From the NCBI GenBank assembly GCA_021825655.1, contig JAKAGU010000002.1:13129-77128 (forward strand): a stretch of 64,000 nt of DNA, in the 5' to 3' direction. Both the position numbers and the translations under genes were made by a program. This stretch comes from a bacterium (GTDB lineage Bacteria; Patescibacteriota; Doudnabacteria; UBA920). The notes beneath the pieces were generated by a model. It made no database searches. It was not told the DNA's origin and saw only the letters and a program-made list of their open reading frames with translations. This document shows positions 4,060 to 57,693 of the stretch, piece after piece; positions within the stretch are counted from its first letter, which is position 1, and each line of letters begins with the position of its first letter.

Positions 4060-5196
4060 TTAAGGTGCTGTTGCGCAAGCCAGAGGAGGCTCGCTTGCAG
4101 CGCTCAAGGTCATAGTGCCGGTATAGGTGTCCCCGACGTGAGTCGGCGGGAATTTGGATACGTAAATGGAGAAATCCATTTCATCCAATTGGGACAGATT
4201 TAAAGGATTCAGCAACTGTGTGAGCGTATCCGGATCGTAATGCGCCCAAGTGGCATTACTGCCGACCCTGGCGTCATACCTTACGTTCCAAAGGCCATTG
4301 GTTTTGCCAAAGCCCATATCGTCCTGCTGCACCTTCATGGACAATCTAGTGTTGCCCACATTCCTGACCGATGCCTTGCCCTGGTTTACGGCATCCCAGG
4401 TCAAGTCGCCGCTGATAATCTTATCGGTGGCCAATCTGACATTACCGTAACCAACGGAAGTAAAGTCGGTTTCAAAAGCTGTCAAAGGAAGATAAGTAAA
4501 CTGATTTTCTAACCTTCCCTGCAAGCCGACTTTGTCCTGGACTACTGACCAGACCTTATAATCACCAGCTGTATCTTCGTAAGAGAGGTCTTTCGTAACG
4601 CAATAAACCGCCGCAGTTTCTTTTTGCAGTTCACCGTCAGTCTTACAGATTTCGTCGTAGTTATAGCCGCTGGCAAAGGTTGCCAGGTTGTTGTTATTGT
4701 TCCTTACCTGGTTGCAGAAAAGCTCAATCCCGTCCGCCTTGGACAGCTGGATTAATTTATCTTCCTGCATTAAGTTGCCGCACGCCAAACCAGACTGGCC
4801 TGGCAGCGGGACATGGCTTGAGCCCAGAGCAATCCCCTCTGGGTAGAAGACATCGCCATAAACCGCCCCGGGGGCTGTGGTTACGTCAGCCAAACCGTCC
4901 GGATCCGTGACAACAGAACAAAGAGCAATGTTTGTGTTCGTGTCCTTTATGCCTGAGGGAACAAACTGCGCGCCAGCTGTAGTTTGTTCGTCCGTATAAT
5001 AGCCGGTAACAGGCAAAGGTGTACCTGTGCCCTTATTGGTGGCGCCATACGCTTCCCATTTTGCTTTCACAATGGGAGCTGAGCCGCCGCTTGTATCACG
5101 CGTTAAACCAGTAGTAACATTGCCGGCCGAAGCTGGCCCAGACGTCATGGCAAATAGGGATGCCACTGTTACTAGGGTATAAATTCTTTTAATCAT
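4060..5196 (-). CDS. Secreted Cys-containing hypothetical protein (paralog B)
   Basis: 378 aa with signal peptide MIKRIYTLVTVASLFAMTSGPASA. The conserved 4-Cys pattern and C-terminal beta-rich region are collinear with 2488..3828. Confidence 0.6.
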   Translation of the reverse strand: MIKRIYTLVTVASLFAMTSGPASAGNVTTGLTRDTSGGSAPIVKAKWEAYGATNKGTGTPLPVTGYYTDEQTTAGAQFVPSGIKDTNTNIALCSVVTDPDGLADVTTAPGAVYGDVFYPEGIALGSSHVPLPGQSGLACGNLMQEDKLIQLSKADGIELFCNQVRNNNNNLATFASGYNYDEICKTDGELQKETAAVYCVTKDLSYEDTAGDYKVWSVVQDKVGLQGRLENQFTYLPLTAFETDFTSVGYGNVRLATDKIISGDLTWDAVNQGKASVRNVGNTRLSMKVQQDDMGFGKTNGLWNVRYDARVGSNATWAHYDPDTLTQLLNPLNLSQLDEMDFSIYVSKFPPTHVGDTYTGTMTLSAASEPPLACATAP

Positions 5197-10653: not shown

Positions 10654-10682
10654 TTGACACTGCGTACGGATTATGGAAAAAT
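10654..10682 (+). promoter_or_regulatory. Putative sigma70-type promoter for ppcA (TTGACA-N17-AAAAAT)
   Basis: TTGACA at 10654-10659 with a weak -10 box at 10677-10682. This suggests the true start codon is the ATG at 10691 (MKKSIRK), which is preceded by aagagag. Confidence 0.3.
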
Positions 10683-12208
10683 CAAGAGAGATGAAAAAAT
10701 CCATACGCAAAATCCCGGCCACCATGGCCACCCAGCACCCGGACCATGCCAACCGGCCGTACTGGCAAAAAGACGCCTTTATTCCCACGCTCAAAGAAGC
10801 TGAGGAATGTTTTTTGTGCTTTTCAGATTTGGGAATTAGCGAATACAAATGGGACTGGGAAGGCAAGCTAGTGGACGAGTCCGTGTTGGAAAGACTCCTG
10901 GCCGAGCACTTCCAGTACTTTAAAGACCAGCCCTTGGGCCAAAAAAAGTTTTTGACTTTCCGCCTGCCCAACCCCAAAGTGGAAACCGAATTCCGCCTGG
11001 GACGCGCGCTCATGGGTATGCTGACGGCGGCCAGTCTTGCCCGCCAGGCCGAGCTGCACACGCCGCCCATGTTTGAAGTTATTTTGCCCATGACCGAAAG
11101 CGCGGAGGAAATGATAGATATCCAGGAAGCTTTTGCCGAGGTGGCTAACCTAAAGCACCGGCTTTATAACCATGAAAAAAACGCGCTCAAGCATATAGAG
11201 ATTGTGCCGCTGTTTGAAAGCGTGCAAAACATTGCGGAGTCGGACCGGATTCTGGAGGACTACCTGCGCCTCCATAAATGGAAGTTCGGCTTTGTGCCTC
11301 AATACATGCGGCCGTACGTGGCGCGTTCCGACCCCGCCCTTAACTCCGGCCTGGTACCTACTGTGCTGGCGATAAAAATTGCCTTATCGCGCTACCGCCA
11401 GTTTGAGGAAAAACACAAAATAAAGCTTTTCCCGGTAATTGGTGTGGGCACGCTACCATTTCGCGGCAGCCTTAACCCGTTGCGCATCAATGATTTTATA
11501 AAAGAATACAAAGGCATACGCACGGCCATTATCCAAAGCGCTTTCAGGTACGACTTCCCTAAGGACAAGGTAAAGGCCGCAATCGCCAGGCTGGATAAAC
11601 AGCTGCCCCAAGGCCAAGCCAAACTCATCCCCGCGGACGAGATACAAAAGCTGCTGGAATTGATTCGGCCGTTCGAAACAGCTTACCAAAAAACCGTGGA
11701 AAAAATCGCCCCGCTGGTTAACCAGGTGGCAGCCCATCTGCCCAAACGCCGGGAACGCGTGCTGCACACCGGCCTGTTCGGCTACAACCGCGGCGTGGGC
11801 AAGGTCCGTTTGCCCCGGGCCATCAGCTACACGGCTGCGCTATATTCTTTGGGCGTGCCGCCGGAGCTGATCGGCACCGGCCGAGGCCTGAAGCTGGCTG
11901 CGGAAAAACACGGCGTTAAGCTCATCAAAAAATACTACCTAAACCTCAAAACCGACATGCAAGCGGCCGGAAACTACCTGAGCCGCGGCGTCCTTAAGGA
12001 GCTTGCCAAAAATCACTTGGAGTGGACGCAGGTCCAGGAAGACGTTAAGTCAATTGAACGCGCCTTGAGTATAAAACTCGGGCCCAAAACCCGCGAACAG
12101 AAAGAACATGCCAGACTGTCGGAGCTTATCCACAAAAAGCTGCTCAAAAACAAAAACCCGCAAAGAGAAATTGAAAAAGCCGCGCTCTTAAGGCGCAGTA
12201 TGGGCTAA
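10673..12208 (+). CDS. ppcA: Archaeal-type phosphoenolpyruvate carboxylase (PpcA family)
   Basis: The N-terminal IPATMATQHPD signature and length of about 510 aa match archaeal-type PEPC (compare IPRTMSTQHPD in Sulfolobus). Collinear downstream conservation (W.WEGK.VD, HF.YF). Start is possibly at 10691. Confidence 0.85.
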   Translation: MEKSREMKKSIRKIPATMATQHPDHANRPYWQKDAFIPTLKEAEECFLCFSDLGISEYKWDWEGKLVDESVLERLLAEHFQYFKDQPLGQKKFLTFRLPNPKVETEFRLGRALMGMLTAASLARQAELHTPPMFEVILPMTESAEEMIDIQEAFAEVANLKHRLYNHEKNALKHIEIVPLFESVQNIAESDRILEDYLRLHKWKFGFVPQYMRPYVARSDPALNSGLVPTVLAIKIALSRYRQFEEKHKIKLFPVIGVGTLPFRGSLNPLRINDFIKEYKGIRTAIIQSAFRYDFPKDKVKAAIARLDKQLPQGQAKLIPADEIQKLLELIRPFETAYQKTVEKIAPLVNQVAAHLPKRRERVLHTGLFGYNRGVGKVRLPRAISYTAALYSLGVPPELIGTGRGLKLAAEKHGVKLIKKYYLNLKTDMQAAGNYLSRGVLKELAKNHLEWTQVQEDVKSIERALSIKLGPKTREQKEHARLSELIHKKLLKNKNPQREIEKAALLRRSMG

Positions 12209-18498: not shown

Positions 18499-18813
18499 AT
18501 GAAAAAAATCCTTTTGGCTGTAGGCTTGGCCGCGCTGCTCGCGGCTGGCTGCAACAGCTCAAAACCTGCTGCACAGAACCCGGGCGAACAGCCAGTAGCC
18601 CAGGCCCCTGAGCAGCAGACAAACCCAACCCCGGCGCCCGCTGTCCAGACACAGTCCAACGTGAAGGTCCAAAACGTTGATGACGCCTTAAACGAGCTTG
18701 ATAAGCAAGCGGCCAGCGAGCAATCCCTGACTGCCGGCACGGATGACAGCGACCTGACTGCCACAGATGCCACTGAGCTTAACAGCCTTACGGAGGTACC
18801 AAATGGAAACTAA
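18499..18813 (+). CDS. Small lipoprotein, Pro/Gln/Ala-rich
   Basis: Signal peptide with lipobox LLAAGC, then low-complexity sequence. Confidence 0.5.
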   Translation: MKKILLAVGLAALLAAGCNSSKPAAQNPGEQPVAQAPEQQTNPTPAPAVQTQSNVKVQNVDDALNELDKQAASEQSLTAGTDDSDLTATDATELNSLTEVPNGN

Positions 18814-19549
18814 ATTAAAAATAGCGGCGGCCCTTGCTTCCATATCCATCCTGGTGCCGGCTTTTGCCCTGGCTGCCTTGCCGGCGCAGGGAACAGCCGG
18901 TGCGGGACAGAATTTTTGCACCCGGCTGCCGGAATTGACCACGCAAGTCAATAACCGGCTGGCGCAGTCAACCACCAACCTGCAAAACCGCCAGCAGGAA
19001 ATCCAGACCAAAGTACAGGAAAGACAGACAACGCGGACTCAGCAGCTTACTCAGGTACGCAATACCGCTGCCCAGGACCGCCAGGCAATTTATACCCAGC
19101 TCATGGCCAAAGCCACGACCGATGCGCAAAAACAGGCTGTAACGACATTCCAAAACACCATCGAAGCTGCGGTTACCACCCGCCAGACTGCGGTTGACGC
19201 CGCAAGACTAGCCTACTGGACAGCCCTAGACTCCGATTTAAGCACCCGCCAGACCGCGGTATCCACGGCCCGGCAGAACTTCTTCAGCGCCATCCAAACG
19301 GCGCTAACCACAGCCAGCAGCCAGTGTGCTGCGGGCACGGCTCCGGCCACGGTAAGACAAAATTTCCAAACCGCGCTGCAAGCGGCCAAAACTCAATTCG
19401 CCACCAACCGTAAGGCAATCGACAAAATTGGCCCGGAAGTGAAAGCTTTGGTACAGACCCGCAATGCGGCTATTAAAAAAGCCATGGATACTTTTAAAAC
19501 CACAGCCCAGCAAGCCCGGACCACGCTTAAAGCCGCGTTCGGAAAATAG
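18803..19549 (+). CDS. Secreted Thr/Gln/Ala-rich helical-repeat protein
   Basis: The start METKLKIAAALASISILVPAFALAA is preceded by GGAGG. The remainder is a repetitive Q/T/A-rich helical sequence. Confidence 0.5.
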   Translation: METKLKIAAALASISILVPAFALAALPAQGTAGAGQNFCTRLPELTTQVNNRLAQSTTNLQNRQQEIQTKVQERQTTRTQQLTQVRNTAAQDRQAIYTQLMAKATTDAQKQAVTTFQNTIEAAVTTRQTAVDAARLAYWTALDSDLSTRQTAVSTARQNFFSAIQTALTTASSQCAAGTAPATVRQNFQTALQAAKTQFATNRKAIDKIGPEVKALVQTRNAAIKKAMDTFKTTAQQARTTLKAAFGK

Positions 19550-19560
19550 TTTCTGTTTCA

Positions 19561-19600
19561 AAAACACCCGCCTCTCTCAGGAGGCGGGTGTTTTGTTTAT
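19561..19600 (+). terminator. Rho-independent terminator
   Basis: aaaaaCACCCGCCTCtctcagGAGGCGGGTGttttgtttat. Confidence 0.7.
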
Positions 19601-19632
19601 CTTGCCATACAAGATAATTATGAGTCGGCCAT

Positions 19633-19839
19633 TTAAGCCAGATCCAAGATCGGGGTAGTTTCCTGAGCCAGATCCAAGATCGGGGTAGTTTCCTGAGCCA
19701 GATCCAAGATCGGGGTAGTTTCCTGAGCCAGATCCAAGATCGGGGTAGTTTCCTGAGCCAGATCCAAGATCGGGGTAGTTTCCTGAGCCAGCCCTGTAAA
19801 CCCAAACACTATAACCAGCACTACAATAAGCGTTTTCAT
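19633..19839 (-). CDS. Small secreted repeat peptide: signal peptide + (TTPILDLAQE) x5
   Basis: 68 aa ORF. MKTLIVVLVIVFGFTGLAQE is a signal peptide, and the 10-aa repeat is encoded by the 30-bp tandem repeat. There is no obvious SD. Coding status is uncertain because the other two frames are also open across the repeat. Confidence 0.4.
   Translation of the reverse strand: MKTLIVVLVIVFGFTGLAQETTPILDLAQETTPILDLAQETTPILDLAQETTPILDLAQETTPILDLA
19636..19791. repeat. Perfect 30-bp tandem repeat x5 (+ 6-bp partial sixth copy): AGCCAGATCCAAGATCGGGGTAGTTTCCTG
   Basis: Read directly from the sequence. Copies at 19636, 19666, 19696, 19726 and 19756 have no mismatches. Confidence 0.95.
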
Positions 19840-19915
19840 ATTTTGTATTTTTGTTATTAATTTTAAAATCGGCCTGTTCCCGACCTGAACAGTCCTAAAT
19901 TGTATCCGCCGCCAA

Positions 19916-20622: not shown

Positions 20623-22149
20623 TTAGACAAACCCGGGAAAAAAGTCGGTTTTTATTTTATTCGACGCAACCCCCATGCTCAGAAGCGCGTTTTCATAAGC
20701 CGTAACCATGGCGTGGGGCCCGGAAAGATAAAACCTGCGCTGTTTAAAATCGGGCACTTCAGCGGCAATCAGCTCCGCATTTATCGGACCGACATTACCC
20801 TGCCAGCCGGCTGGCACCTGGGTTTTGTCGGTTAGGGTATAAACAGCCCGAAGGCCAAGCTTTTCCACAGCCTGGTCGAAAATATCGGTGTAAACCGCCT
20901 CCGCAGCCGTCTTGTTGCTGTAAAACAGCACAATATCCCTGGCCTGGTTTGTATCCAGCAAATATTTAATCATGCTGCGAAAAGGAGTAATACCGATACC
21001 GCCCGCAATAAACACGCTTTTTTCTTGGGGGTTCTCCGGCAGGGTAAAATCCCCTGCCAGCTGGCCGGCTAAGATTTTATCGCCGGGCTGCATTGCCAGC
21101 ATGGATTTTTTGTAGCTGCTCGGCGGGTCATAAAATTTTACACCCATGATAATTTCTTGCTCAGTCGGCGCGGAAGCGATAGTAAAATAACGGCGGTTAC
21201 CCCGGTTATCTGGCTTATCGTGTTCCAGCGTCCACTCCAAATACTGACCCGCCCGGAACGGCATGCCCGTATCCGTTGCAAAAACAAAATCGAAAATACC
21301 CGGGCCCAGGCGCATTTTTTCTTTTAAGGTAAGCAGGAGTTTCTTTTTCGGGCTGGCTAAATAAGAAAACACGTTGCCCGCCAGAAGTGCCAGCTCAGGC
21401 GTGGAATAAAGCGAAAGCACATGCATCTGAGGAGCGAACAACAACCCCACCAGTCCGCCGTAAACGGCCTGCAGCCCTTTGGTCGGCGGGGTTGTCAGGG
21501 GTTCCGTCAGCATCACAAAAGCAAAGAAGAACAACGGCGAGTCCACAAGCACCTTCTGCACAGAAGAGACCAAGTCCAGGCCGCGGGCCAGATCCAAACC
21601 CAGAATAGTGACCAAGGCCACAACGAAAAAACTGAACACCAGGTCAAACCTCCTGATTTTCCTCACAGTCAGAAAACCGCCCACCAATACAAACGGCAGC
21701 ATCCAGGCCGTGCCCACCCACCAGCTCGCCGACTGGTTAATGGTCAAAGCCGTAAGGGCCACGGCAAAAGCCACGGGGTTAAAAATATGTTTCCGATTAA
21801 AGGCCAGAATATACTTGGAAACTTGGGACCAAATCGCGGCCCAGGCCACAAACCCGAAATACTGGGCGTCCAAAGTTTTAATCGGCGTAATAATCAAAGC
21901 TAAAATCAAAGCGGTTATATAAACGGATTCCACATTGGTGGGCACATTAAAAATCCAGGCGGAAACCACATTCACGATCCAGCAAAGCAGAGTGATAAAA
22001 AATACGGAATACACCAGCCCCACCGGGCTATAGGGCAAAGCGCCAAACAGACTTAAAAGAAAAGCCGCCGCCAAAAGGCCGATGAGGTAATACAGCACCA
22101 GCCGGTACATGGTTATTTTGTTCAAAAAATCATCTACAAAGGTAAGCAT
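20623..22149 (-). CDS. Membrane-embedded FNR-like flavin oxidoreductase (N-terminal polytopic domain + C-terminal FAD/NAD(P)H-binding domain)
   Basis: The C-terminal half has the ferredoxin-NADP reductase family FAD motif RRYFTIASAP (RxY[ST]) and the NAD(P) motif GGIGITPFRSM. The N-terminal roughly 270 aa are multi-pass TM and lack the paired-His heme ligands of ferric-reductase (NOX) domains. Confidence 0.7.
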   Translation of the reverse strand: MLTFVDDFLNKITMYRLVLYYLIGLLAAAFLLSLFGALPYSPVGLVYSVFFITLLCWIVNVVSAWIFNVPTNVESVYITALILALIITPIKTLDAQYFGFVAWAAIWSQVSKYILAFNRKHIFNPVAFAVALTALTINQSASWWVGTAWMLPFVLVGGFLTVRKIRRFDLVFSFFVVALVTILGLDLARGLDLVSSVQKVLVDSPLFFFAFVMLTEPLTTPPTKGLQAVYGGLVGLLFAPQMHVLSLYSTPELALLAGNVFSYLASPKKKLLLTLKEKMRLGPGIFDFVFATDTGMPFRAGQYLEWTLEHDKPDNRGNRRYFTIASAPTEQEIIMGVKFYDPPSSYKKSMLAMQPGDKILAGQLAGDFTLPENPQEKSVFIAGGIGITPFRSMIKYLLDTNQARDIVLFYSNKTAAEAVYTDIFDQAVEKLGLRAVYTLTDKTQVPAGWQGNVGPINAELIAAEVPDFKQRRFYLSGPHAMVTAYENALLSMGVASNKIKTDFFPGFV

Positions 22150-22151
22150 AT

Positions 22152-22895
22152 TTAGTTGGTTACGTATTGTTCGAAGCCCGATGTTTTGGTGGCTATCCCC
22201 TGACTGTCTATCATGTAGCCCTCCAGGCCTTCAATGGACTCAATAAAATTAATTCCTTCCCTGCCCATGGCAAAAGCGGCAGTGGCAAACCGGTCAGCCT
22301 CATATATGTTGGGGCCGATTATCGTAAGGCTCACAATTTCTAAGAGCTGTTGGCCCGGCTTGAAGGGGTTGTAAATGTGCTGGCCCCGCTCGGCAGTGCC
22401 TGAGGTGGCTACTCCCTGGCTGGTAATACTCAGGACTTTGACAATCTCCTCGTGCTTGAAAGGATTGCGGATACCCACGCGCCACGATTGACTGCCCGCA
22501 TCTTCCACCTGACCCTGAATGTCCCCGCCCGCGTCTATAAAAAAATACTTGTGGCCCGCACGCTCCAGCAGCAGGCTTGCCTGCCAGATGGCCCAGCCTT
22601 TAACTATGCCCGACGGATCCCAAAAGCCTTCGGGCCGCCAAATATTAAAATAGCCCCTGGTGGCTTTTTTAGTTTCTTCCGCCAGCATAAAAATTTTTTT
22701 AATGTCCGGAGGGTATTGGCTTTCCGCCAACTCGCCTCGGTTAATCTGGCTAATGGCGCTGTTTGGCTTATACGTACTGAAGGTCTCGTCAATATACTGA
22801 AAATATTCAAATACTCTGTCACAGCCCTGCTTTTCGTCGCCGTCCCTGACCTCGACTGTAATGTGCATACCCATCAAATTTCGAGTTTGCTGCAT
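22152..22895 (-). CDS. apbE: FAD:protein FMN transferase (ApbE family), short form without signal peptide
   Basis: ApbE core motifs FFIDAGGDIQGQ and GVATSGTAERG. 247 aa. Confidence 0.75.
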   Translation of the reverse strand: MQQTRNLMGMHITVEVRDGDEKQGCDRVFEYFQYIDETFSTYKPNSAISQINRGELAESQYPPDIKKIFMLAEETKKATRGYFNIWRPEGFWDPSGIVKGWAIWQASLLLERAGHKYFFIDAGGDIQGQVEDAGSQSWRVGIRNPFKHEEIVKVLSITSQGVATSGTAERGQHIYNPFKPGQQLLEIVSLTIIGPNIYEADRFATAAFAMGREGINFIESIEGLEGYMIDSQGIATKTSGFEQYVTN

Positions 22896-22899
22896 AAAC

Positions 22900-23520
22900 T
22901 TAATTCTTCGCTTTGGCTAAGGCCGAAGCCAGGGATTGCTGGAAAGCCTGGCTCGAATCCGTGGCTCCTGAAACTATGTCTACATTTGCGCTCTGGGCTG
23001 CAATTGCCTCAGCTTTCAAATAAGGCATAGCCTGGCCGTTAATTTCGCGGGAAGTACTGCGGTCATTTGGGTACTGCAAGAACACCACGTCTGTAATTTT
23101 GCCGCCAGCAACAGTCACCTGCACTTGGATGTTGCCGTAATAGGCGTCTGCGACGCTGCCCGTATACTGCCCGTCCGCGTATTGGCCCTTGGGTTTAGGT
23201 GCCGGAACAGGAGCCGGAGCCGGTACGGGCGCCGGAGTAGGCGCGGGGACGGGCTTGGGCTGGGCAGGGGCGGGAGCAGGGATGGAAATTGGCAAGGGCT
23301 GGGACTGGCTGCTTTTTGGAGGGCTACTGGGCGGATCAGCGGCAATGGGCGCCTGTACGGGAACTTCCGCAATCGCGGCCGTGGAAGTGGCCTCAGGAGC
23401 TGCAGGTTTAATGGCAGAAACGTCAACCAAAACACCAGGCGCAGGCGCCAGCCTGCTCTGGTAAATCGCGTAAAAGGTAAAGCCGCCGACTATAATTAAT
23501 GAGTAAAAAAATTTCTTCAT
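22900..23520 (-). CDS. Membrane-anchored FMN-binding domain protein (ApbE flavinylation target, SGAT motif)
   Basis: N-terminal TM anchor followed by a (PAPVPA)n linker. The C-terminal FMN_bind domain ends ...DIVSGATDSSQAF, containing the flavinylated Thr of NqrC/RnfG-type domains. Confidence 0.75.
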   Translation of the reverse strand: MKKFFYSLIIVGGFTFYAIYQSRLAPAPGVLVDVSAIKPAAPEATSTAAIAEVPVQAPIAADPPSSPPKSSQSQPLPISIPAPAPAQPKPVPAPTPAPVPAPAPVPAPKPKGQYADGQYTGSVADAYYGNIQVQVTVAGGKITDVVFLQYPNDRSTSREINGQAMPYLKAEAIAAQSANVDIVSGATDSSQAFQQSLASALAKAKN

Positions 23521-23535
23521 AACTTTAAAAAACGG

Positions 23536-24138
23536 TTATTCTTCATCGCTATTGCCGTTATGCCCGGACACATACTCTCCATCCACCCAGGCGTATTCCC
23601 CTGACTTCAAGCGAATACGGTACCAGCCGTCTTCCTCCCCGGTATAATTATACGTTTGGCCGGGGTAGGCCTTGCCAATCACAGAACCGGAAACTGCAGG
23701 CTGGCTCCTGGCGTTTAAATAACCCGTAGGGGTTTCTTTTATTTTAACGCTTTTTTTGCTTTGTAGACTCTTGCGGACGGGAGCAGGCGCAGATATGTTT
23801 GCGTTCGCCGTTGGAGCCGAAGCTGGAGGAGTGGCCGAGGCAACCGGTTCGGATAAAGTTTGATCAGGCAGAGCCATCTGCCCCAGCACTGCCGGTTTAG
23901 GCGCAGCCTGGGCCAACTTGGAGGTTTTCCCTGAAGCTGACACAAGCACGTACTTGCCGGCGGCAACCAAGGCCAGAAGGCTTAGGCTGGCCAGGAATAT
24001 TTTGGCACTGGGCAATTTTTTCCCGCCTGTGTTTTTGTTTAGAAACAACTTTTCGGGTCCATTAAAAAATCTACTGTCAGGTTTTAACCCATCCTGGCTA
24101 ATGTTGCGCACTTCAAAATTTGGACCTTGTTGATTCAT
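23536..24138 (-). CDS. Membrane-anchored bacterial SH3 (SH3b) domain protein
   Basis: C-terminal GYLNARSQPAVSGSVIGKAYPGQTYNYTGEEDGWYRIRLKSGEYAWVDGEYV matches SH3_3. There is one TM helix (IFLASLSLLALVAAGKYVLV) and a Pro/Ala-rich linker. Confidence 0.6.
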   Translation of the reverse strand: MNQQGPNFEVRNISQDGLKPDSRFFNGPEKLFLNKNTGGKKLPSAKIFLASLSLLALVAAGKYVLVSASGKTSKLAQAAPKPAVLGQMALPDQTLSEPVASATPPASAPTANANISAPAPVRKSLQSKKSVKIKETPTGYLNARSQPAVSGSVIGKAYPGQTYNYTGEEDGWYRIRLKSGEYAWVDGEYVSGHNGNSDEE

Positions 24139-24140
24139 GT

Positions 24141-24560
24141 TTAGTTTCTGGCTTGGGATAAAGCGCTGGCCAGGGACTGCGCAAAAGCTTGGCTGGTATC
24201 GGTCGCGCCGGAAATTACGTTTACCTGAGCGCTCTGGCTGGCAATGGCTTCGGCTTTCAGGTACGGCATGGACTGGTTACTAATACTCTTGGAAGTTGGC
24301 CGGTCGTTGGGGTACTGCAAAAATGTCACATTGGCCAGCTTGCCGCCGGACACAATTGCCTGGACCTGCACGTTGCCGTAATAAGCGTCGACTGCGTTGC
24401 CTGTATACGTACCGTCTTTATAGCTAATATTTTGGCCGGGCTGGTTTTGGCTGATTATTGGCGGCGTTACCCGGTGTTCGCCGTAACGCTGGTAAACCGC
24501 ATATGCGCATATGGCGGCAAAAAGGGTTGCTCCAATCAGGAGCTTCTTCACTGTTGTCAT
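24141..24560 (-). CDS. Membrane-anchored FMN-binding domain protein (second copy)
   Basis: N-terminal TM anchor. The FMN_bind domain with ...NVISGATDTSQAF is collinear with 22900..23520. Confidence 0.75.
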   Translation of the reverse strand: MTTVKKLLIGATLFAAICAYAVYQRYGEHRVTPPIISQNQPGQNISYKDGTYTGNAVDAYYGNVQVQAIVSGGKLANVTFLQYPNDRPTSKSISNQSMPYLKAEAIASQSAQVNVISGATDTSQAFAQSLASALSQARN

Positions 24561-24632
24561 GTGGTGGGGGTTAAATTATCTCTTTTTTAGGATACCAAAA
24601 CCACATGAAGCTGGCATGAAGCCATAAATTAA

Positions 24633-26051
24633 CTACGGGCTAAAAGATGGCTGCACGCTTAATTCCAAATGGTAAGGATTGCCATTTCTGGCCTTTAAAC
24701 CCCCGTATTTTACTATCCCTTCCAGAATATACTTCTGTTTTAAGGGCAAATTTGTTACACCAGCGCCAAGAACGGGCAAATCGTACGGCCCCAACTTGCC
24801 AGCAGCCTCATCGGAAAAAATTGCATAACCGTTGTCCTGCTGCAAAACATAACCCTCTACCGCCACTTTTTTATCCACAAAATTCTGGGCTTGTCTGCTT
24901 ACGCTGCCAATACTGGAAACGGGCAAAGTCCCGCGGGTTTTAATAATATCCAAGCCGTCAGGAATGTTCAGCTGCCCATAGCCGGCGCCAGGCTTGCCCG
25001 TGACGCCATACTGCCAGATTATTTTTTTGGTCTGCTTGTCAACCACTATCACACGGTGATTCTGGTCATCGTTGGCCAAAATATTACCGTTAGGCAGCTC
25101 AATCGCCAAGGAAGGGTGGTTCAGCTTCACATCCCCGTCCTGGCCGCTGAATTGCCACACCACTTTACCCTGCCGGCTTACTTCCACCACCTGTCCGGGA
25201 TTGCTGTAGTCGGCTATCAGAATATTGCCTGCCTGAGTCAGCTGGGGGTCTGACGGGTACCTTACCGGCAGAACCATATTAAAAACCGGCTGCCAGGAAT
25301 TATCCAACTCCACCAGATTCTTTCCCACGATGTTGCTAACCAGGGTGTGCCCGCCGGCCAGGGGCGTGTCGCCATTGGGCTTATCAAGAAAACCCGCTTG
25401 GTTTTTACAAACACCAGTTTGTCCATATTGCCGCACAATCTGCTTTTCGGGAGAAATTTCCAAAATGCGGCAGTTCTTTATGTCCGCGACCGTCACGTCG
25501 CCATTAGGTAGCTTGTAGGCATCATCTGGCGTATTCAGGTATCCGGGCGCAGATCCTGCATGCCCGCCAACGCCATAGCTCCAGGTTACCTGCTTGCTCG
25601 CATAATCGATAATCTGAATCAGATGGTATTCTTCCAAATTCACGATAACCGAGTTGCCGCTATCCGTAAAAAAAGAATCGTCCGCACCCAGGCCGGCTTT
25701 GGGCAAATGAAAGGCGTACTCCCAAATTACCCGTTTGTCGGGGGTTACTTCCAAAAGCCGGTTGTTACCCCGGTCGGCAATCAAGACATTATAACCACCC
25801 AAGGCGGAGGTATCTTTCGGTTCGCCTTTCACCTCTAAAGGCGTAGCCACAACGGGCGCAGCCGGAGGGTTTGCCTCATAGCTTTCAGGCAAGGTCTCCT
25901 GCGCTTCGCCGCCAAGGTCGCTATCTGAAAGCTGGGCTTGTCTGGCAGAAAAAAATATCCGGGTGTTTCCCCGGGACAGCAGGACCGCCGCAAGGATTAC
26001 CACGCAAAAACCGCAAAAGATGCCGGCGGCAAGAAGAATCTTTTTTTTCAT
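24633..26051 (-). CDS. Secreted beta-propeller repeat protein (NHL/ASST-like repeats)
   Basis: Signal/anchor MKKKILLAAGIFCGFCVVILAAVLL. At least five degenerate repeats of the form N.R(V/L).(V/I)...(K/G).(V/I).W(E/Q/S)(Y/F). Confidence 0.5.
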   Translation of the reverse strand: MKKKILLAAGIFCGFCVVILAAVLLSRGNTRIFFSARQAQLSDSDLGGEAQETLPESYEANPPAAPVVATPLEVKGEPKDTSALGGYNVLIADRGNNRLLEVTPDKRVIWEYAFHLPKAGLGADDSFFTDSGNSVIVNLEEYHLIQIIDYASKQVTWSYGVGGHAGSAPGYLNTPDDAYKLPNGDVTVADIKNCRILEISPEKQIVRQYGQTGVCKNQAGFLDKPNGDTPLAGGHTLVSNIVGKNLVELDNSWQPVFNMVLPVRYPSDPQLTQAGNILIADYSNPGQVVEVSRQGKVVWQFSGQDGDVKLNHPSLAIELPNGNILANDDQNHRVIVVDKQTKKIIWQYGVTGKPGAGYGQLNIPDGLDIIKTRGTLPVSSIGSVSRQAQNFVDKKVAVEGYVLQQDNGYAIFSDEAAGKLGPYDLPVLGAGVTNLPLKQKYILEGIVKYGGLKARNGNPYHLELSVQPSFSP

Positions 26052-27082
26052 GTTGAAATTTTATATTTTTTCTGCGCGGGCAGACTGATTAAAAAATCCG
26101 TCCCCTGCCCGAGGGCGCTCTGTACTGCCAAGTGGCCGCCATGCGCATCAACAATCGCCTTGACAATGGACAGCCCCAATCCTGTTCCTTGCCCGTGCTT
26201 GGACTGGTCGCCCTGGTAAAAACGTTCAAAAATAAAAGGCAAGTCTTTTTCCGCAATCCCAACACCGGTATCGGCAATTTTGACGTCTACCTGGTTGTCT
26301 TTTACGGCCAGGCTAATATCCACCCTGCCTTGTGGCTTATTGTATTTGATGGCATTTTCAATCACGTTGGCAAAAGCGTGCTCCAGAAAATGCCGGCTGC
26401 CAAAAATCTGTACGGGGCCTGACTCGGCCAGCGCCAGTTCTATTTTGCTGCTATGAGCCAGGCCCTGAAACCTGTCCACGGTCTTGCTCAGCAATTGCTG
26501 CAAATCTACGGGCATAAAACCCGAGCTGAAATCCTGGCCTTCGGCTTGCGATAATTCCAGCAGCTGGTGGCTTAGCCGGGTCAAGTTGCCAATTTCTTCC
26601 AAAAGACTGGCTAAGGTCTTTTGGACCCCGGCGGACAGTTCGATTTTTTGGCGCTGCAGAACCTCAATATCCGTACGCATTACTGCCAAAGGCGTACGGA
26701 GTTCGTGGGAGGCGTCGGCCACGAAGCGCTTCTGGCCTTCCATGGCCAGTTTAATGGGTTTCAAAGTGTACCCGGCAAAACTATAGCTGGCAAAGGCTGC
26801 TACCAACAAAACGGCCCCGTCAATCATAACTAGCAGCCAGGCCAGCCTTTCGCAGGCATCGTCAAAAAAATTCTCTTCCTGAATGAGTTCGCCTCGGACA
26901 TTTTCGCGGTAGGAACGTCGAAGCTGCTGGGTGGTGGCAGTATAAAAACTTATGCTGAAAACCGTAACGATTACGAAAATAATCGCCATGTACCACAAAG
27001 TCAGCTTGACCCGGGCCTGGTGGAACGGATCAAAATTCAAGCCGGTAGCCGAGGCCCCGGACGGTTTGGAGGTGTTTGCCAT
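26048..27082 (-). CDS. Sensor histidine kinase (HisKA + HATPase_c)
   Basis: H-box ADASHELRTPLAVM, N-box IENAIKYN and G2 GTGLGLSIVKAIVDAHGG. The N-terminus overlaps the upstream response regulator stop by 53 bp, so the real start may be the internal ATG at 26989. Confidence 0.85.
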   Translation of the reverse strand: MANTSKPSGASATGLNFDPFHQARVKLTLWYMAIIFVIVTVFSISFYTATTQQLRRSYRENVRGELIQEENFFDDACERLAWLLVMIDGAVLLVAAFASYSFAGYTLKPIKLAMEGQKRFVADASHELRTPLAVMRTDIEVLQRQKIELSAGVQKTLASLLEEIGNLTRLSHQLLELSQAEGQDFSSGFMPVDLQQLLSKTVDRFQGLAHSSKIELALAESGPVQIFGSRHFLEHAFANVIENAIKYNKPQGRVDISLAVKDNQVDVKIADTGVGIAEKDLPFIFERFYQGDQSKHGQGTGLGLSIVKAIVDAHGGHLAVQSALGQGTDFLISLPAQKKYKIST

Positions 27083-27698
27083 ATGCGCCCAGTTTCTTTC
27101 TTAAATTTTTAACATGCACATCGACCACGTTACTGAATGAATCAAAGGAAAAATCCCAAACGGCGGCAAGAATCTGATCCCGGGAAAGTACCTGGCCGGC
27201 GTGGCGCATAAAATACTCCAATAGCCGATACTCCCGCAAAGTTAAGGCCAAGGATCTGCCGCTTAAGGTAACCTGTTTTTTTGCGCTGTCCAAAATTAGC
27301 GGCCCCACCAGCAAAACCTCCGAGACCAAAGCCTGCGGGCGGCGCAAGAGCGCCCGAAGCCTGGCCAAAAGTTCGCTAAACTCAAATGGCTTAATCAGGT
27401 AATCGTCCGCGCCTGCGTCCAGACCCAGAACCTTATCATCCGTGGTGTCTCTGGCGGTCAGCATTAAAACCGGGGTGATAATATTTTTTTCGCGCCAAGC
27501 ACCGCATACCGAAACCCCGTCCTTGCCCGGCAGCATAATATCCAAAATTACCAAGTCATACATATCCCTGTGCGTTTCCAGCCTTTTTTCGCCCATTTCC
27601 CCGTCAAACAGCAAATCCACGGCATAACCCTCTTGCTCCAAGCCGAGCTTGAGGGAATTGGCTAATTTGGCATTGTCTTCGATAACCAATATTTTCAT
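27030..27698 (-). CDS. OmpR-family response regulator (receiver + winged-helix)
   Basis: Receiver domain MKILVIEDN...DLVILDIMLPGKDG...LMLTARD. C-terminal trans_reg_C LTLREYRLLEYFMRHAGQVLSRDQILAAVW...VDVHVKNLRKKL. Confidence 0.9.
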   Translation of the reverse strand: MKILVIEDNAKLANSLKLGLEQEGYAVDLLFDGEMGEKRLETHRDMYDLVILDIMLPGKDGVSVCGAWREKNIITPVLMLTARDTTDDKVLGLDAGADDYLIKPFEFSELLARLRALLRRPQALVSEVLLVGPLILDSAKKQVTLSGRSLALTLREYRLLEYFMRHAGQVLSRDQILAAVWDFSFDSFSNVVDVHVKNLRKKLGAYGKHLQTVRGLGYRLEF

Positions 27699-27888
27699 GT
27701 CTTTATTGTATCCTTCTTAAATGAAGCTGGCATGAAGGCGCAGGAAGACTTGCGGCTGCCCAAACAAAAAAACTACGGACAAAATATCCCTAGTTCCACC
27801 AATACCGGTTAATTCCGCTGTTTTGCATTTAACTGGATATTGTTTTGTCATTTTATTTAAAATCAAACCTTTAACAGACGGATCTATT

Positions 27889-56685: not shown

Positions 56686-57693
56686 TTAAATTTCGCGGGC
56701 CAGCCGGGCCACCAGCTTCTCCTTCTGGCTGTCCGTGATTGCAACAGGCTGGAAGCTTTTGTGTGTTTTCAGCCGGCTTTGCAATTCCGCCTTAGTGAGC
56801 AGCCCGGCCTGCGGCCCAATCTGCCCGACTACGCTCGCCGCGTTCACCGGACCCCAGCGCAAAGCTTCCGCATGAGGCAAACCGTAAACCAAAGCCGCTA
56901 TATACGCTGTAGTGAAAGAGTCCCCGGCGCCGGTCGCCTCCAGTCTTTTTCCGGGGAACTTTTGAGTAAAATAAAAACCTTCGCTGCTATAACTGTACGC
57001 CCCCCTTGGCCCATCCGTCACCGTGACTGCTTTGGGCCCCAAAGCCACCAGCCGCCGGCATAACTCCTTAACACTGTCCGCCTTGCCAACCCAGCCTTCG
57101 GCCTCTTCCATATTTAAAGAAAGCAGGTCGGTTTTTTCCAAAACTTTGCGGTTGGCTTTCGGCCCCGCGAGCAGCTGGTACGTGCCCGGATTAAAAGCCA
57201 GGCGCACGTCGTACTTTTCCAGATACCTGACCAAGTCTTTATAAATTTTTTCAAACCCCTTGCCCATGCTGGTCAAATACACCCAGCGGGCGGGTAAAAA
57301 ATTAGGTAGCTTGTAGTGCCGGTGCTCATGGTACACATAAATCGTGCGTTCTCCCTCGTGGCATAAAACCATGGAAGCATTGGTTCCGTGCCGGTCGTTT
57401 TTCTCTATGTAGCGCGTTGAAACGCCTTCTTTCTGCATTTTATGCAGGACTTCGCGCCCGCCCATGTCGTGGGCAAAAACCGTATAAAAAGCTGTTTTCA
57501 AACCCAGCCGCGAACTGCCGACCGCATGGTTGGCTGCATTGCCCGCCACGGATTTATACAGCTTGTCTACAGGCAGCTTGTCGCCCCAATTAATTACCGC
57601 TTTTTGCTCCCCGCCCATTTCGCGGATTTCCAAATCTTTAATAAACAAAAAAGTATCAATGGTGGCGTCGCCGATGGAAATAATGTCAAACAT
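56686..57693 (-). CDS. PfkB-family carbohydrate kinase
   Basis: The C-terminal GAGDSF catalytic motif and N-terminal substrate-binding region. Start MFDIISIGD is preceded by GGAG. Confidence 0.8.
   Translation of the reverse strand: MFDIISIGDATIDTFLFIKDLEIREMGGEQKAVINWGDKLPVDKLYKSVAGNAANHAVGSSRLGLKTAFYTVFAHDMGGREVLHKMQKEGVSTRYIEKNDRHGTNASMVLCHEGERTIYVYHEHRHYKLPNFLPARWVYLTSMGKGFEKIYKDLVRYLEKYDVRLAFNPGTYQLLAGPKANRKVLEKTDLLSLNMEEAEGWVGKADSVKELCRRLVALGPKAVTVTDGPRGAYSYSSEGFYFTQKFPGKRLEATGAGDSFTTAYIAALVYGLPHAEALRWGPVNAASVVGQIGPQAGLLTKAELQSRLKTHKSFQPVAITDSQKEKLVARLAREI

What the first reader, a model, noticed from the sequence alone, without database searches (positions are those of the whole stretch)
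19633..19839. Perfect 30-bp x5 tandem repeat encoding a candidate secreted repeat peptide (contingency-like locus)
The unit AGCCAGATCCAAGATCGGGGTAGTTTCCTG is repeated five times with zero mismatches plus a 6-bp partial copy. Absolute identity implies very recent expansion or contraction (replication slippage or recombination), as in phase- or length-variable loci.

On the minus strand the repeats sit in frame inside a 68-aa ORF: a convincing signal peptide (MKTLIVVLVIVFGFTGLAQE) followed by (TTPILDLAQE)x5 and a stop just past the last repeat. This would be a small exported peptide whose length varies in 10-aa steps.

However, all three minus-strand frames are open across the repeat and there is no SD. 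The alternative is a non-coding structured repeat (each unit contains the self-complementary core GATCCAAGATC...).
Basis: seen in the sequence. Interest (0 to 1): 0.55.

Follow-up and report, generated by a model that had tools for sequence, protein, structure and literature searches.

The report
Small secreted tandem-decapeptide protein gene
The perfect 5 x 30-bp repeat is the coding sequence of a tiny exported protein of a Patescibacteria (CPR) bacterium, made of a signal peptide plus five identical acidic decapeptides (QETTPILDLA); the gene is real and conserved, its unit number differs between assemblies, and its 8-residue core also occurs as a repeated motif in a family of Acidobacterial subtilisin-like proteases.

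Summary
Window 19636..19791 holds 5.2 perfect copies of a 30-bp unit, found nowhere else in the window.

It is coding. The minus-strand ORF 19633..19839 encodes MKTLIVVLVIVFGFTGLA + (QETTPILDLA)x5, with the stop directly after the last unit.
- A relative with ~91% DNA identity keeps the ORF, the stop position and the unit.
- An unrelated 40%-GC contig encodes a diverged signal peptide plus three units. These differ from each other and from the window unit at 7-9 of 30 bases, all synonymous.
- The "no SD" objection does not hold: only 8 of 67 genes in the window have an SD-like motif.
- The repeat RNA folds no better than shuffles, and Rfam, Pfam and NCBIfam give nothing.

Contigs of the same strain carry 1, 2, 4 or 5 units, or break inside the array. 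De Bruijn collapse predicts exactly these numbers, so real length polymorphism is likely but unproven. The change is always in frame, so this is not an ON/OFF switch.

Relatives at ~75% identity lack the gene. No neighbouring gene is conserved with it.

Unexpectedly, the core QETTPILD is a repeated, invariant motif in a disordered insertion just before the catalytic His of Solibacter/Bryobacterales S8 proteases. Function is unknown. The likeliest role is an extracellular, multivalent, disordered acidic repeat protein.

The parts
19633..19839 (-). ORF of 68 aa: MKTLIVVLVIVFGFTGLA + (QETTPILDLA)x5, ATG start, TAA stop at 19633..19635
   Evidence: The orthologous ORF, with its stop at the same place, is in L002. 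A homologue, P0126, is in L082.
19786..19839 (-). Signal-peptide-like N-terminus (aa 1-18): basic K2, 12-residue hydrophobic core, then G-L-A before Gln19
   Evidence: Read by inspection; no signal-peptide predictor was available. AF2 models a helix at residues 2-17. L002 has conservative changes V7A and T15M plus 3 synonymous base changes. L082 has MKKFVAIFVIVFAFAVVS, also 18 aa, with small residues at -3/-1.
19636..19785 (-). Five identical 30-bp units CAGGAAACTACCCCGATCTTGGATCTGGCT, each encoding QETTPILDLA. The mature product would be 50 aa, 5.4 kDa, net charge about -10.
   Evidence: Units in L082 encode the same decapeptide with 7-9 synonymous and 0 non-synonymous differences. AF2 gives pLDDT ~53 and no secondary structure.
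19636..19791 (.). DNA tandem array as seen by TRF (5.2 copies); the extra 6 bp CTGGCT are codons 17-18 of the signal peptide. This is the presumed substrate for slippage or unequal recombination.
   Evidence: Unit number is 1, 2, 4 or 5 in contigs that are otherwise 99.8-100% identical, and several contigs end in the array.
19840..19915 (-). 5' intergenic region. It holds a hairpin GGACTGTTC-AGGTCGG-GAACAGGCC (19871..19895) followed by a T-run, a -10-like TAAAAT (19860..19865), and an A-rich leader without SD.
   Evidence: Sequence. The last 62 nt before the ATG differ at only 1 position from L002, against ~9% divergence overall. The leader resembles those of most genes in the window. No consensus sigma-70 promoter was called, so the promoter assignment is inferred.
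19597..19617 (-). Small hairpin UAUCUUG-UAUGG-CAAGAUA between the stop codon and the terminator
   Evidence: Folded. Conserved in L002 with one loop change while the surrounding bases diverge. Function unknown.
19561..19594 (.). Bidirectional intrinsic terminator hairpin (15-bp stem, U-runs on both strands), shared with the converging 248-aa gene
   Evidence: Relatives that lack the peptide gene have just one such terminator in a 56-bp gap.

Best explanation
The array is the coding sequence of a genuine, lineage-restricted small gene of a Patescibacteria (CPR) bacterium.

Proposed mechanism:
- The product is made with an 18-aa Sec-type signal peptide.
- It is exported and probably cut after ..GLA by signal peptidase I.
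- This releases an acidic (about -10), intrinsically disordered 50-aa polypeptide consisting only of QETTPILDLA x5. In a cell without an outer membrane it would be released at or near the cell surface.
- The decapeptide, and especially its 8-residue core QETTPILD, is the functional element and is under strong purifying selection.
- The unit count sets how many copies of that linear motif one molecule displays.

Because the units are identical at the DNA level and flanked by a 6-bp partial copy, replication slippage or unequal recombination adds or removes whole 10-aa units without ever breaking the frame. That gives length (valency) variation, not ON/OFF switching.

Shown here: the repeat; the ORF and its conservation; synonymous-only divergence of units; absence of the gene from relatives at ~75% identity; different unit numbers in different assemblies.

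Inferred: export and cleavage; disorder; slippage as the mechanism; that the copy-number differences are biological; that the motif acts extracellularly by binding something.
For: Repeat.

Coding:
- L002 (~91% identical over 7 kb) keeps the ATG, the frame and the stop. Its changes are 4 synonymous and 3 conservative non-synonymous bases.
- The other frames are not conserved.
- L082 (40% GC, no shared neighbours) encodes a different 18-aa signal peptide plus QETTPILDLA x2 + QETTPILDFV.
- The window unit and the two full L082 units differ pairwise at 7, 7 and 9 bases, all synonymous. Only 23 of 90 possible single-base changes are synonymous. At least 11 substitutions with none non-synonymous gives about 3e-7 (my arithmetic).

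Translation context: only 8 of 67 genes have an SD-like motif, and A/T-rich leaders like this one are the norm.

Own transcription unit: conserved upstream 62 nt, a downstream hairpin and a bidirectional terminator. L082 also has its own terminator.

Disorder: AF2 gives a helix at 2-17 and pLDDT ~53 with no secondary structure for the rest.

Length variation:
- Contigs that span the locus carry 1 unit (ERZ27237563, ERZ27237541), 2 (ERZ27237587), 4 (GCA_021840085.1) and 5 (window).
- Three Logan k=31 contigs break 30 nt into the array, which requires at least 2.2 copies.
- Further contigs end in or beside the array.

Recent origin of the perfect array: the L082 units are synonymously diverged while this lineage's units are identical. 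Relatives at ~75% identity (L004-L007) have no gene at this position.
Against: - No expression, proteomic or read-level data were available.
- The signal peptide was judged by eye, not by a predictor. It could instead be an uncleaved N-terminal membrane anchor.
- The AF2 run had no alignment, so low pLDDT is weak evidence for disorder.
- Every observed unit number (1, 2, 4, 5) equals the shortest-path result of de Bruijn collapse at k<=31, 39-59, 99-119 and 127-141 respectively. The polymorphism may therefore be an assembly artefact, and the true number may exceed 5.
- The family has only three called proteins among ~15 billion, so conservation rests on three lineages.
- No consensus promoter was found.
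Confidence: 0.78

Rival explanations
1. Polyprotein precursor. After export the 50-aa chain is cut at every ..DLA|QE.. junction, which is the same Leu-Ala|Gln-Glu context as the signal-peptide cleavage site. This releases five identical decapeptides, possibly with N-terminal pyroglutamate, that act as a diffusible signal or effector. Copy number would set the dose. This is a more specific version of the best explanation, not its opposite.
For: - The signal-peptide/unit-1 junction and the unit/unit junctions share LA|QE in the window and in L002.
- The protein ends exactly at a unit boundary in all three lineages.
- In L082 only the last two residues of the last unit, which no longer precede a junction, have changed (LA to FV). 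Internal LA linkers are kept.
- The S8-protease version of the motif mostly lacks LA, which suggests a core (QETTPILD) plus a spacer (LA).
- Known analogues, from my own knowledge: yeast alpha-factor and fungal Kex2-processed repeat proteins; Bacillus Phr peptides matured by S8 proteases.
Against: - Asp at -3 of the internal junctions is a poor signal-peptidase I site (general knowledge).
- No processing protease, receptor or transporter is encoded next to the gene, and the neighbours differ completely between the window and L082.
- There is no direct evidence of cleavage.
Confidence: 0.15
2. Molecular mimic or derivative of a host protease motif. The peptide is a secreted multivalent copy of the QETTPILD linear motif that Acidobacterial (Solibacter/Bryobacterales) S8 proteases carry 4-6 times in a disordered loop before the catalytic His. 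It would compete for whatever reads that motif (a partner protein, or the protease's own active site). On this view it is an episymbiont-to-host effector, and the gene may have begun as a captured S8 fragment fused to a signal peptide.
For: - The 8-residue core is identical.
- One S8 variant (P0156) even has the 10-residue form QETSPVVDLA-QETSPVVD.
- The motif is invariant across 20 species' S8 genes despite many synonymous differences.
- It co-varies between proteins but is uniform within each protein. That pattern is what a recognised linear motif would show.
- The motif region is low-confidence (pLDDT 40-60) inside an otherwise confident S8 model.
- The last copy aligns with the native subtilisin loop SETNPFQD, so the motif is native to S8 proteases, not to the peptide.
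- My rough estimate puts the chance that an unrelated tandem-repeat family shares the same 8-mer at 1e-3 to 1e-2.
- Patescibacteria are widely thought to be epibionts (papers listed).
Against: - Single chance occurrences of this 8-mer are expected in databases of this size. The DNA scan gave 48 single-match loci against ~50 expected (my arithmetic).
- Convergence of short T/P/E/D/Q-rich repeats is common.
- Nothing links this CPR organism to an Acidobacterial host.
- The function of the motif in the proteases is itself unknown, and no paper mentions it.
Confidence: 0.1
3. Surface-anchored stalk. The N-terminal hydrophobic segment is not cleaved and anchors the protein in the membrane. The acidic repeat projects from the cell as a spacer or shield of variable length, in the manner of Mycoplasma Vlp/Vsa size variants, modulating adhesion, phage access or host contact.
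For: - From K2 to A18 the segment is 16 uncharged residues, modelled as one helix.
- The rest is an in-frame C-terminal repeat with apparent size variants.
- The organism is a small-genome, probably host-associated bacterium.
Against: - The hydrophobic core is only 12-14 residues and is followed by a helix-breaking Gly and small residues at -3/-1 in both lineages (GLA; VVS). That is typical of cleaved signal peptides (general knowledge).
- There is no lipobox Cys.
- A 10-50-residue tail is very short for a shield.
Confidence: 0.12
4. Non-coding repeat: a structured RNA, a set of protein-binding iterons, or a cluster of GATC methylation sites. On this view the ORF is accidental.
For: - Each unit holds two GATC sites. 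Ten of the window's 86 GATC sites lie in these 150 bp, while GATC is under-represented overall (observed/expected 0.35).
- The unit DNA is identical in L002 despite ~9% genome divergence.
Against: - In L082 the units differ at 7-9 of 30 bases yet encode the same decapeptide, and the GATC sites are not kept there.
- The repeat folds no better than shuffles on either strand.
- Rfam finds nothing.
- The start, frame and stop are conserved in three lineages.
Confidence: 0.02

Closest known systems
Perfect in-frame amino-acid tandem repeats (aaTRs) and 'de novo repeat peptides' of Borg elements (Schoelmerich et al., PLoS Biol 2023, PMC9879509)
   Same: Both have perfect nucleotide units with no SNPs, a unit length divisible by three, and a flanking partial repeat. 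Both have a product rich in T/P/E/D/Q and predicted to be disordered. Borg aaTR proteins are enriched in signal peptides and extracellular location. Unit number varies between close relatives, and assemblers collapse the arrays. Some small Borg ORFs are almost entirely repeat.
   Different: This locus is on the chromosome of a CPR bacterium, not on an archaeal extrachromosomal element. It is a single array in 64 kb rather than pervasive TRs. The unit is not new in this lineage: the same decapeptide is conserved with synonymous divergence in a distant homologue. The peptide sequence is therefore old and constrained; only the perfect array is recent.
Size-variable surface proteins of small-genome bacteria (Mycoplasma hyorhinis Vlp, M. 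pulmonis Vsa), as I recall them
   Same: Both combine an N-terminal export signal with a C-terminal region made of in-frame tandem units of about 10-13 aa. Gain or loss of units changes protein length.
   Different: Those are lipoproteins with a lipobox Cys, belong to multigene families, and are switched ON/OFF by promoter repeats or inversions. Here there is no Cys, a single gene, no sequence similarity (no Pfam or NCBIfam hit), and no ON/OFF mechanism.
Classical contingency loci (simple-sequence-repeat phase variation in Neisseria, Haemophilus, Campylobacter), as I recall them
   Same: A perfectly repeated tract in a gene for an exported product, prone to slippage.
   Different: Those repeats are 1-8 bp, and a change of copy number shifts the frame or the promoter spacing. 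Here the unit is 30 bp, so every change stays in frame.
Exported multi-copy peptide precursors (yeast alpha-factor and fungal Kex2-processed repeat proteins; Bacillus Phr pro-peptides matured by S8 proteases), as I recall them
   Same: A signal peptide is followed by identical short units. The junction context is repeated at each unit. There is a link, here only through a shared motif, to subtilisin-family proteases.
   Different: There are no dibasic Kex2 sites, no cognate receptor or Rap-like gene nearby, and cleavage between units has not been shown.
Solibacter/Bryobacterales S8 subtilases with a (QETTPILD)n insertion
   Same: The 8-residue core QETTPILD is identical and tandemly repeated 4-6 times in a region modelled as disordered. 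A variant has the 10-residue form QETSPVVDLA.
   Different: Those are ~450-aa enzymes of another phylum. Their motif sits inside the catalytic domain and derives from a native subtilisin loop. The CPR gene has no protease domain.

Membership tests
Perfect in-frame tandem-repeat (aaTR) protein, as defined for Borgs in PMC9879509 | Perfect nucleotide tandem repeat, at least 50 nt and at least 3 units, with no mismatch | tested here: met
   156 nt, 5.2 copies, 100% identity
Perfect in-frame tandem-repeat (aaTR) protein, as defined for Borgs in PMC9879509 | Lies in an ORF, with a unit length divisible by three that gives a perfect amino-acid repeat | tested here: met
   A 30-bp unit inside ORF 19633..19839 gives (QETTPILDLA)x5
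Perfect in-frame tandem-repeat (aaTR) protein, as defined for Borgs in PMC9879509 | The repeat region is intrinsically disordered | tested here: inconclusive
   AF2 without an alignment gives pLDDT ~53 and no secondary structure for residues 19-68. No dedicated disorder predictor was run.
Perfect in-frame tandem-repeat (aaTR) protein, as defined for Borgs in PMC9879509 | Unit number varies within or between closely related populations | tested here: inconclusive
   Contigs with 99.8-100% identical flanks carry 1, 2, 4 or 5 units. All of these values are also predicted by k-mer collapse.
Perfect in-frame tandem-repeat (aaTR) protein, as defined for Borgs in PMC9879509 | Carried on a Borg (archaeal extrachromosomal) element with pervasive TRs | tested here: not met
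   The neighbours and their homologues are Patescibacteria. This is the only such array in 64 kb.
Phase-variable contingency locus | A change in repeat number switches expression ON/OFF through a frameshift or altered promoter spacing | tested here: not met
   The unit is 30 bp, a multiple of 3, and lies wholly inside the ORF. The alleles with 1, 2, 4 and 5 units all keep the frame and the stop.
Phase-variable contingency locus | Hypermutable repeat tract (heterogeneity within a population) | not testable with these tools
   This needs the reads. Only assemblies were available.
Sec-type (signal peptidase I) signal peptide | Basic n-region, hydrophobic h-region of 7-15 residues, and small uncharged residues at -3 and -1 | tested here: met
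   By inspection only. The window has K2, TLIVVLVIVFGF, then G-L-A|Q. L082 has KK, FVAIFVIVFAFA, then V-V-S|Q. AF2 models a helix at 2-17. No SignalP-type predictor was available.
Bacterial lipoprotein (Vlp/Vsa-like size-variable surface lipoprotein) | Lipobox with an invariant Cys at +1 | tested here: not met
   There is no Cys anywhere in the 68-aa product or in its homologues.
RiPP multi-core precursor (e.g. graspetide, cyanobactin) | A maturation enzyme (ATP-grasp, YcaO, radical SAM, dedicated protease) encoded next to the precursor and conserved with it | tested here: not met
   The neighbours are GT2, DedA, a lipoprotein, a secreted 248-aa protein, a 201-aa membrane protein, an RnfD-like reductase, ApbE and FMN_bind. 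The L082 neighbours share nothing with the window. The 201-aa neighbour occurs widely without the peptide gene.
RiPP multi-core precursor (e.g. graspetide, cyanobactin) | A cytoplasmic leader peptide rather than a Sec signal | tested here: not met
   The N-terminus has the features of a signal peptide.
Peptidase S8 (subtilase) | Catalytic Asp/His/Ser domain (PF00082) | tested here: not met
   The peptide has no Pfam or NCBIfam hit. Only the 8-aa motif is shared with the S8 family.
Known RNA family or structured non-coding repeat | A match to an Rfam model, or folding significantly better than shuffled sequence | tested here: not met
   Rfam finds only two tRNAs, elsewhere in the window. The repeat's z-scores are +0.96 on the plus strand and +0.55 on the minus strand.

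The most novel reading that the evidence does not exclude
The peptide is an episymbiont effector: a secreted, multivalent, copy-number-tunable mimic (or captured fragment) of the QETTPILD linear motif that Solibacter/Bryobacterales S8 proteases display 4-6 times beside their active-site His. It would act as a decoy, inhibitor or substrate in that protease system. If so, it would point to Acidobacteria as the host of this Patescibacteria lineage. It would also expose an undescribed motif-reading mechanism in a protease family with at least 2,500 members.
Probability: 0.08. Interest if true: 0.8.

Novelty: new member of a known kind. Interest (0 to 1): 0.45.

Why it matters
Very few small proteins of CPR/Patescibacteria have any evidence of being real. 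Here comparative data alone show that a 28-68-aa product is genuine and that a 10-residue sequence is held invariant while its codons drift.

The case also separates two time-scales in one family: an old, constrained peptide unit, and a very recent, perfect array whose length may vary between cells of one strain.

If the length variation is real, it is a simple way for a minimal-genome, probably host-attached bacterium to tune the valency of an extracellular motif.

The shared motif with Acidobacterial subtilases gives a concrete, cheap experiment (synthetic peptide against recombinant protease). That experiment could reveal both what the protease insertion does and who this organism interacts with.

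There is a practical lesson too. The locus breaks or collapses in most short-read assemblies, so such genes are systematically under-recorded.

Tried and rejected
- **Exact look-up of the 68-aa product:** not on record. The 28-, 48- and 58-aa variants are not in the clustered collection either, although a 58-aa gene is called on L084.
- **Word-index protein search with the peptide:** one hit only, the 2-unit form. Repeat words appear not to be indexed.
- **Degenerate-codon scan for QETTPILDLA:** no hits in JGI metagenome contigs or in GTDB species genomes. The species may be missing from that set, or represented by an assembly that breaks at the array, as GCA_027424815.1 does just outside it (L087 ends at window 19591).
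- **QETTPILD scan of viral contigs:** none.
- **Family and structure libraries:** Pfam and NCBIfam on the peptide and on P0126 gave nothing. The PDB sequence search with the mature repeat gave nothing.
- **Exhaustive HMMER search:** 92 hits, but apart from P0001, P0126 and the S8 proteases they are unrelated repeat proteins matched through periodicity. I rejected them as homologues.
- **Structured-RNA idea:** rejected.
- **Alternative reading frames:** the LRKLPRSWIW frame is cut by a stop just before the repeat in L002. The SGNYPDLGSG frame has no ATG before the repeat. The plus-strand frames are full of stops or lack a start.
- **RiPP cluster idea:** rejected for lack of any conserved neighbour.
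Cross-lineage substitution patterns were used instead.
- **Literature:** no paper contains 'ETTPILD'. No paper was found on tandem-repeat secreted peptides in CPR.
- **Contig end-points as evidence of real polymorphism:** L011 ends exactly at the 1-unit/multi-unit branch point. MEGAHIT carries collapsed low-k contigs forward (my understanding of the assembler), so this is not decisive.
Full report
**1. The observation**

Tandem Repeats Finder reports one outstanding array in the window: 19636..19791, period 30, 5.2 copies, 100% matches, no indels. A search with the unit allowing three mismatches returns exactly five hits, all perfect and all contiguous. No shuffle of the window gave any hit. 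The sequence shows the 6-bp partial copy CTGGCT at 19786..19791.

**2. Anatomy**

On the minus strand, ORF 19633..19839 reads MKTLIVVLVIVFGFTGLA, then QETTPILDLA five times, then TAA. In this phase the partial copy is simply the Leu-Ala that ends the N-terminal hydrophobic segment. The protein ends exactly at a unit boundary.

The N-terminus has the layout of a Sec signal peptide: Lys2, a 12-residue hydrophobic core, and Gly-Leu-Ala before Gln19. This is by inspection; no predictor was available.

The flanking features are as follows.
- Upstream lies a 76-bp spacer after a 201-aa membrane-protein gene. It holds a hairpin followed by a T-run (19871..19895), a TAAAAT at 19860..19865, and an A-rich leader.
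- Downstream lies a small hairpin (19597..19617).
- Next comes a 15-bp-stem hairpin with U-runs on both strands (19561..19594). It also ends the converging 248-aa gene.

The mature product would be 50 aa, 5.4 kDa, with net charge about -10. AlphaFold2, run without an alignment, gives a helix for residues 2-17. The rest has no secondary structure and pLDDT ~53.

**3. Organism and the 'no SD' caveat**

Homologues of the 201-aa neighbour are named Patescibacteria, Liptonbacteria, Magasanikbacteria or Taylorbacteria wherever a name exists. The other genes in the window fit a CPR bacterium: PBP2, RecJ, iPGM, a histidine kinase, GT2, DedA and ApbE.

Of 67 confident genes in the window, only 8 have even a loose SD-like motif. 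The usual leader is A/T-rich, like TTAATAACAAAAATACAAAAT-ATG here. The absence of an SD therefore says nothing against translation.

**4. Is it coding? Comparative evidence**

(a) L002 is a contig 90-92% identical to the window over 7 kb. At the same place it has MKTLIVALVIVFGFMGLA + QETTPILDLA x2 + stop.
- Relative to the window there are 3 non-synonymous base changes in two codons (V7A, T15M, both hydrophobic-conservative).
- There are 4 synonymous base changes (GGG>GGA, CTG>TTA, final GCT>GCA).
- The stop is at the same position.
- The 62 nt before the ATG differ at one base.
- The alternative minus-strand frame that has a TTG start in the window is interrupted by a stop just before the repeat in L002. 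The third frame has no ATG before the repeat.

(b) An exhaustive HMMER search of 1.84 billion representatives found P0126. It is a 48-aa protein on a 40%-GC contig (L082) whose neighbours have no counterpart in the window. Its sequence is MKKFVAIFVIVFAFAVVS + QETTPILDLA + QETTPILDLA + QETTPILDFV.
- The signal peptide has the same length. It shares 7 of 18 residues by my count and ends V-V-S before Gln.
- The DNA of its three units is not repeated: CAGGAAACAACTCCTATCCTCGACTTGGCT / CAAGAGACTACACCAATCTTAGACCTAGCT / CAGGAAACAACTCCAATCCTAGACTTTGTG.
- The window unit and the two full L082 units differ pairwise at 7, 7 and 9 bases. Every difference is synonymous, although only 23 of 90 possible single-base changes are synonymous.
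- At least 11 substitutions with none non-synonymous has a probability of about 3e-7 under neutrality (my arithmetic).

This settles the question. The decapeptide is translated and strongly constrained. It also shows that the peptide unit is old, whereas the perfect array in the window's lineage is recent.

(c) The non-coding alternative fails on its own terms as well. The array folds no better than shuffles on either strand (z = +0.96 and +0.55), and Rfam finds nothing there.

**5. Distribution**

Relatives at ~75% DNA identity (L004-L007, including two NCBI Patescibacteria MAGs) have the 194-aa orthologue of the neighbour followed, after 56 bp with a single bidirectional terminator, by the converging gene. 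They have no peptide gene. The gene was therefore gained in the lineage leading to the window and L002, or lost in the others.

Among about 15 billion proteins only three family members are recorded, in two clusters. A degenerate-codon scan for QETTPILDLA found nothing in JGI metagenome contigs or GTDB species genomes. It is a rare, stand-alone orphan family with no conserved partner gene. That argues against a RiPP-type cluster.

**6. Copy number**

Looking up the exact flanking proteins recovered a dozen contigs of the same strain, with flanks 99.8-100% identical.

| Contig(s) | Source | Behaviour at the array |
|---|---|---|
| L008/L085 | ERZ27237563 | spans, 1 unit |
| L083 | ERZ27237541 (a 120-kb contig) | spans, 1 unit |
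| L001 | ERZ27237587 | spans, 2 units |
| L084 | NCBI GCA_021840085.1 | spans, 4 units |
| window | – | 5 units |
| L009 | ERZ27237538 | stops after 3.9 units |
| L011 | ERZ27237554 | stops exactly after unit 1 |
| L010, L012, L013 | Logan, k=31 | stop 30 nt into the array |
| L086 | Logan, k=31 | starts one unit before the stop codon |
| L087, L088 | GCA_027424815.1; ERZ27237554 | end just outside the array, in the terminator hairpin |

The k=31 breaks require an array of at least 61 bp, meaning at least 2.2 copies, in those three samples.

This is what a length-variable locus would look like. It is also what assembly of a fixed long array would look like. The shortest path through the de Bruijn cycle gives the following:

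| k | Units in the shortest path |
|---|---|
| up to 31 | 1 |
| 39-59 | 2 |
| 79 | 3 |
| 99-119 | 4 |
| 141 | 5 |

By the same formula k=127 also gives 5 (my arithmetic). These values hold for any array long enough to form a cycle at that k. For 5 units at k=141 this means a true array of 5.2 or more copies.

The Borg tandem-repeat paper makes the same warning about assemblers. I therefore regard polymorphism as likely (roughly 55%) but unproven. The window's five units are a lower bound. Whatever the truth, each change is a whole 10-aa unit, so the locus varies length and is not switched ON/OFF.

**7. An unexpected relative of the motif**

The HMMER search also returned S8 subtilases carrying QETTPILD several times (P0175, P0178). 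P0156 carries QETSPVVDLA-QETSPVVD.

A codon-degenerate scan for QETTPILD in 185,579 species genomes found 20 loci with 4-5 matches each. Nineteen are Acidobacteriota (Ca. Solibacter, Solibacteraceae, Bryobacterales, Acidiferrales) and one is Verrucomicrobiia. It also found 48 single-match loci, about the ~50 expected by chance (my arithmetic).

In all 20 multi-match loci the motif sits between the catalytic Asp and His...DLN-QETTPILD x2-3 - GG(S/T)A(I/V)IL(Q/T/N) - QETTPILD x2-3 - ...GHGTMVAG. The copies differ at many synonymous positions.

The family is large, with at least 2,583 members. Other members carry QDTTPILD, QSTTPILD, QEVTPILD, QSTDSILD, QSTTSILD or QSTTEVLD. In most proteins all copies carry the same variant; in a few a single copy differs.

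The last copy aligns with subtilisin BPN' SETNPFQD just before His64. The motif is therefore a multiplied native loop.

In an AlphaFold2 model built with 58 sequences, the S8 core is confident. Most 10-residue blocks there average pLDDT above 90, and the model's mean is 84.9. The motif region (about 194-241) scores 40-60.

No paper contains 'ETTPILD'.

I estimate the chance that an unrelated tandem-repeat family would share the same 8-mer at 1e-3 to 1e-2, a rough figure. The resemblance is therefore probably not an accident. Whether it reflects capture of a fragment, convergence or mimicry cannot be decided here.

**8. Most likely mechanism**

- Shown: a real small gene. Its decapeptide unit is held invariant by selection. 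A recent, perfect, in-frame array is the only difference among assemblies of one strain.
- Inferred: Sec export and cleavage after GLA. A disordered, highly acidic polypeptide is then released, presenting n copies of a linear motif outside the cell. Unit number changes by slippage or unequal recombination between identical units, seeded by the CTGGCT partial copy.
- More specific but unproven: cleavage at each LA|QE junction into decapeptides (rival 1); action on the system that reads the same motif in Acidobacterial S8 proteases (rival 2); an uncleaved membrane anchor with a variable stalk (rival 3).

**9. Comparison with what is known**

In kind, this is an in-frame VNTR in a gene for an exported protein. 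Its closest described analogues are the perfect aaTRs and repeat-only small ORFs of Borgs (PMC9879509). More loosely it resembles the Mycoplasma Vlp/Vsa size variants.

It fails the defining features of four other classes:
- a contingency locus (no frame or promoter effect);
- a lipoprotein (no Cys);
- a RiPP precursor (no conserved enzyme, and a Sec signal rather than a leader);
- an S8 protease (no catalytic domain).

The family itself is undescribed.

**10. Verdict**

The peptide interpretation is supported, and the non-coding alternative is rejected. Length variation is plausible but not separable from assembly collapse with the data at hand. Function is unknown, with one concrete lead (the shared protease motif). 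I rate it of moderate interest: a new member of a known kind, with a low-probability but high-value mimicry reading.

Noticed in passing
L014, L016, L018, L023, L025, L026, L030, L032, L033, L045, L046, L053, L054, L058, L061-L063, L071, L075, L077 (e.g. L077 3956..5317): A large family (at least 2,500) of Acidobacterial S8 subtilases carries 4-6 copies of an 8-aa motif (QETTPILD, or lineage variants such as QDTTPILD, QSTTPILD, QSTDSILD). The copies lie in an insertion modelled as disordered, just before the catalytic His. In most proteins all copies share one variant although their codons differ. The last copy aligns with the subtilisin loop SETNPFQD. The gene sits after a TPR-CHAT gene and a 226-aa gene. 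No paper contains the motif.
   Followed up: partly
window 19641..19771 and the whole window: GATC is under-represented in the window (86 observed, 248 expected), as are CTAG, TCGA and ACGT. Ten of the 86 GATC sites lie inside the 150-bp repeat, two per unit. The L082 homologue does not keep them.
   Followed up: partly
window 19597..19617 (-): A small hairpin (UAUCUUG-UAUGG-CAAGAUA) lies between the peptide's stop codon and the terminator. It is conserved in the ~91%-identical relative L002 while the surrounding bases diverge. Its function is unknown.
   Followed up: partly
L002 3431..3844; L004/L005 about 4800..5000; window 20623..27880: There is local rearrangement among close relatives. 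L002 has a NUDIX gene inserted downstream of the peptide gene. In L004, L005 and L007 the orthologue of the 201-aa gene sits next to a tRNA and a PHO4/PhoU block. The window has an RnfD-like reductase/ApbE/FMN_bind block there instead.
   Followed up: no
window 10673..12208 (+): An archaeal-type phosphoenolpyruvate carboxylase (TIGR02751, E = 4.6e-144) is encoded in this Patescibacteria genome.
   Followed up: no
window 57686..60220 (-): An 844-aa ORF has no NCBIfam hit. It lies in the stretch with by far the strongest AT skew of the window (+0.34 at 58001..60000), which suggests a compositionally biased large protein.
   Followed up: no
window 18499..18813 (+) and 18803..19549 (+): Two overlapping genes converge on the peptide gene. 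One encodes a 104-aa lipoprotein (lipobox LAAGC). The other encodes a 248-aa T/Q/A-rich protein with a signal peptide. Both are conserved in relatives and have no Pfam family.
   Followed up: no
L003 1..4800: In one relative, the 197-aa homologue of the neighbouring gene lies beside a serine recombinase, a Rep-like protein (PF23343) and an SduA_C (Shedu-type defence) protein. Downstream is a gene whose product exceeds 2,400 aa. This looks like a mobile or defence island.
   Followed up: no
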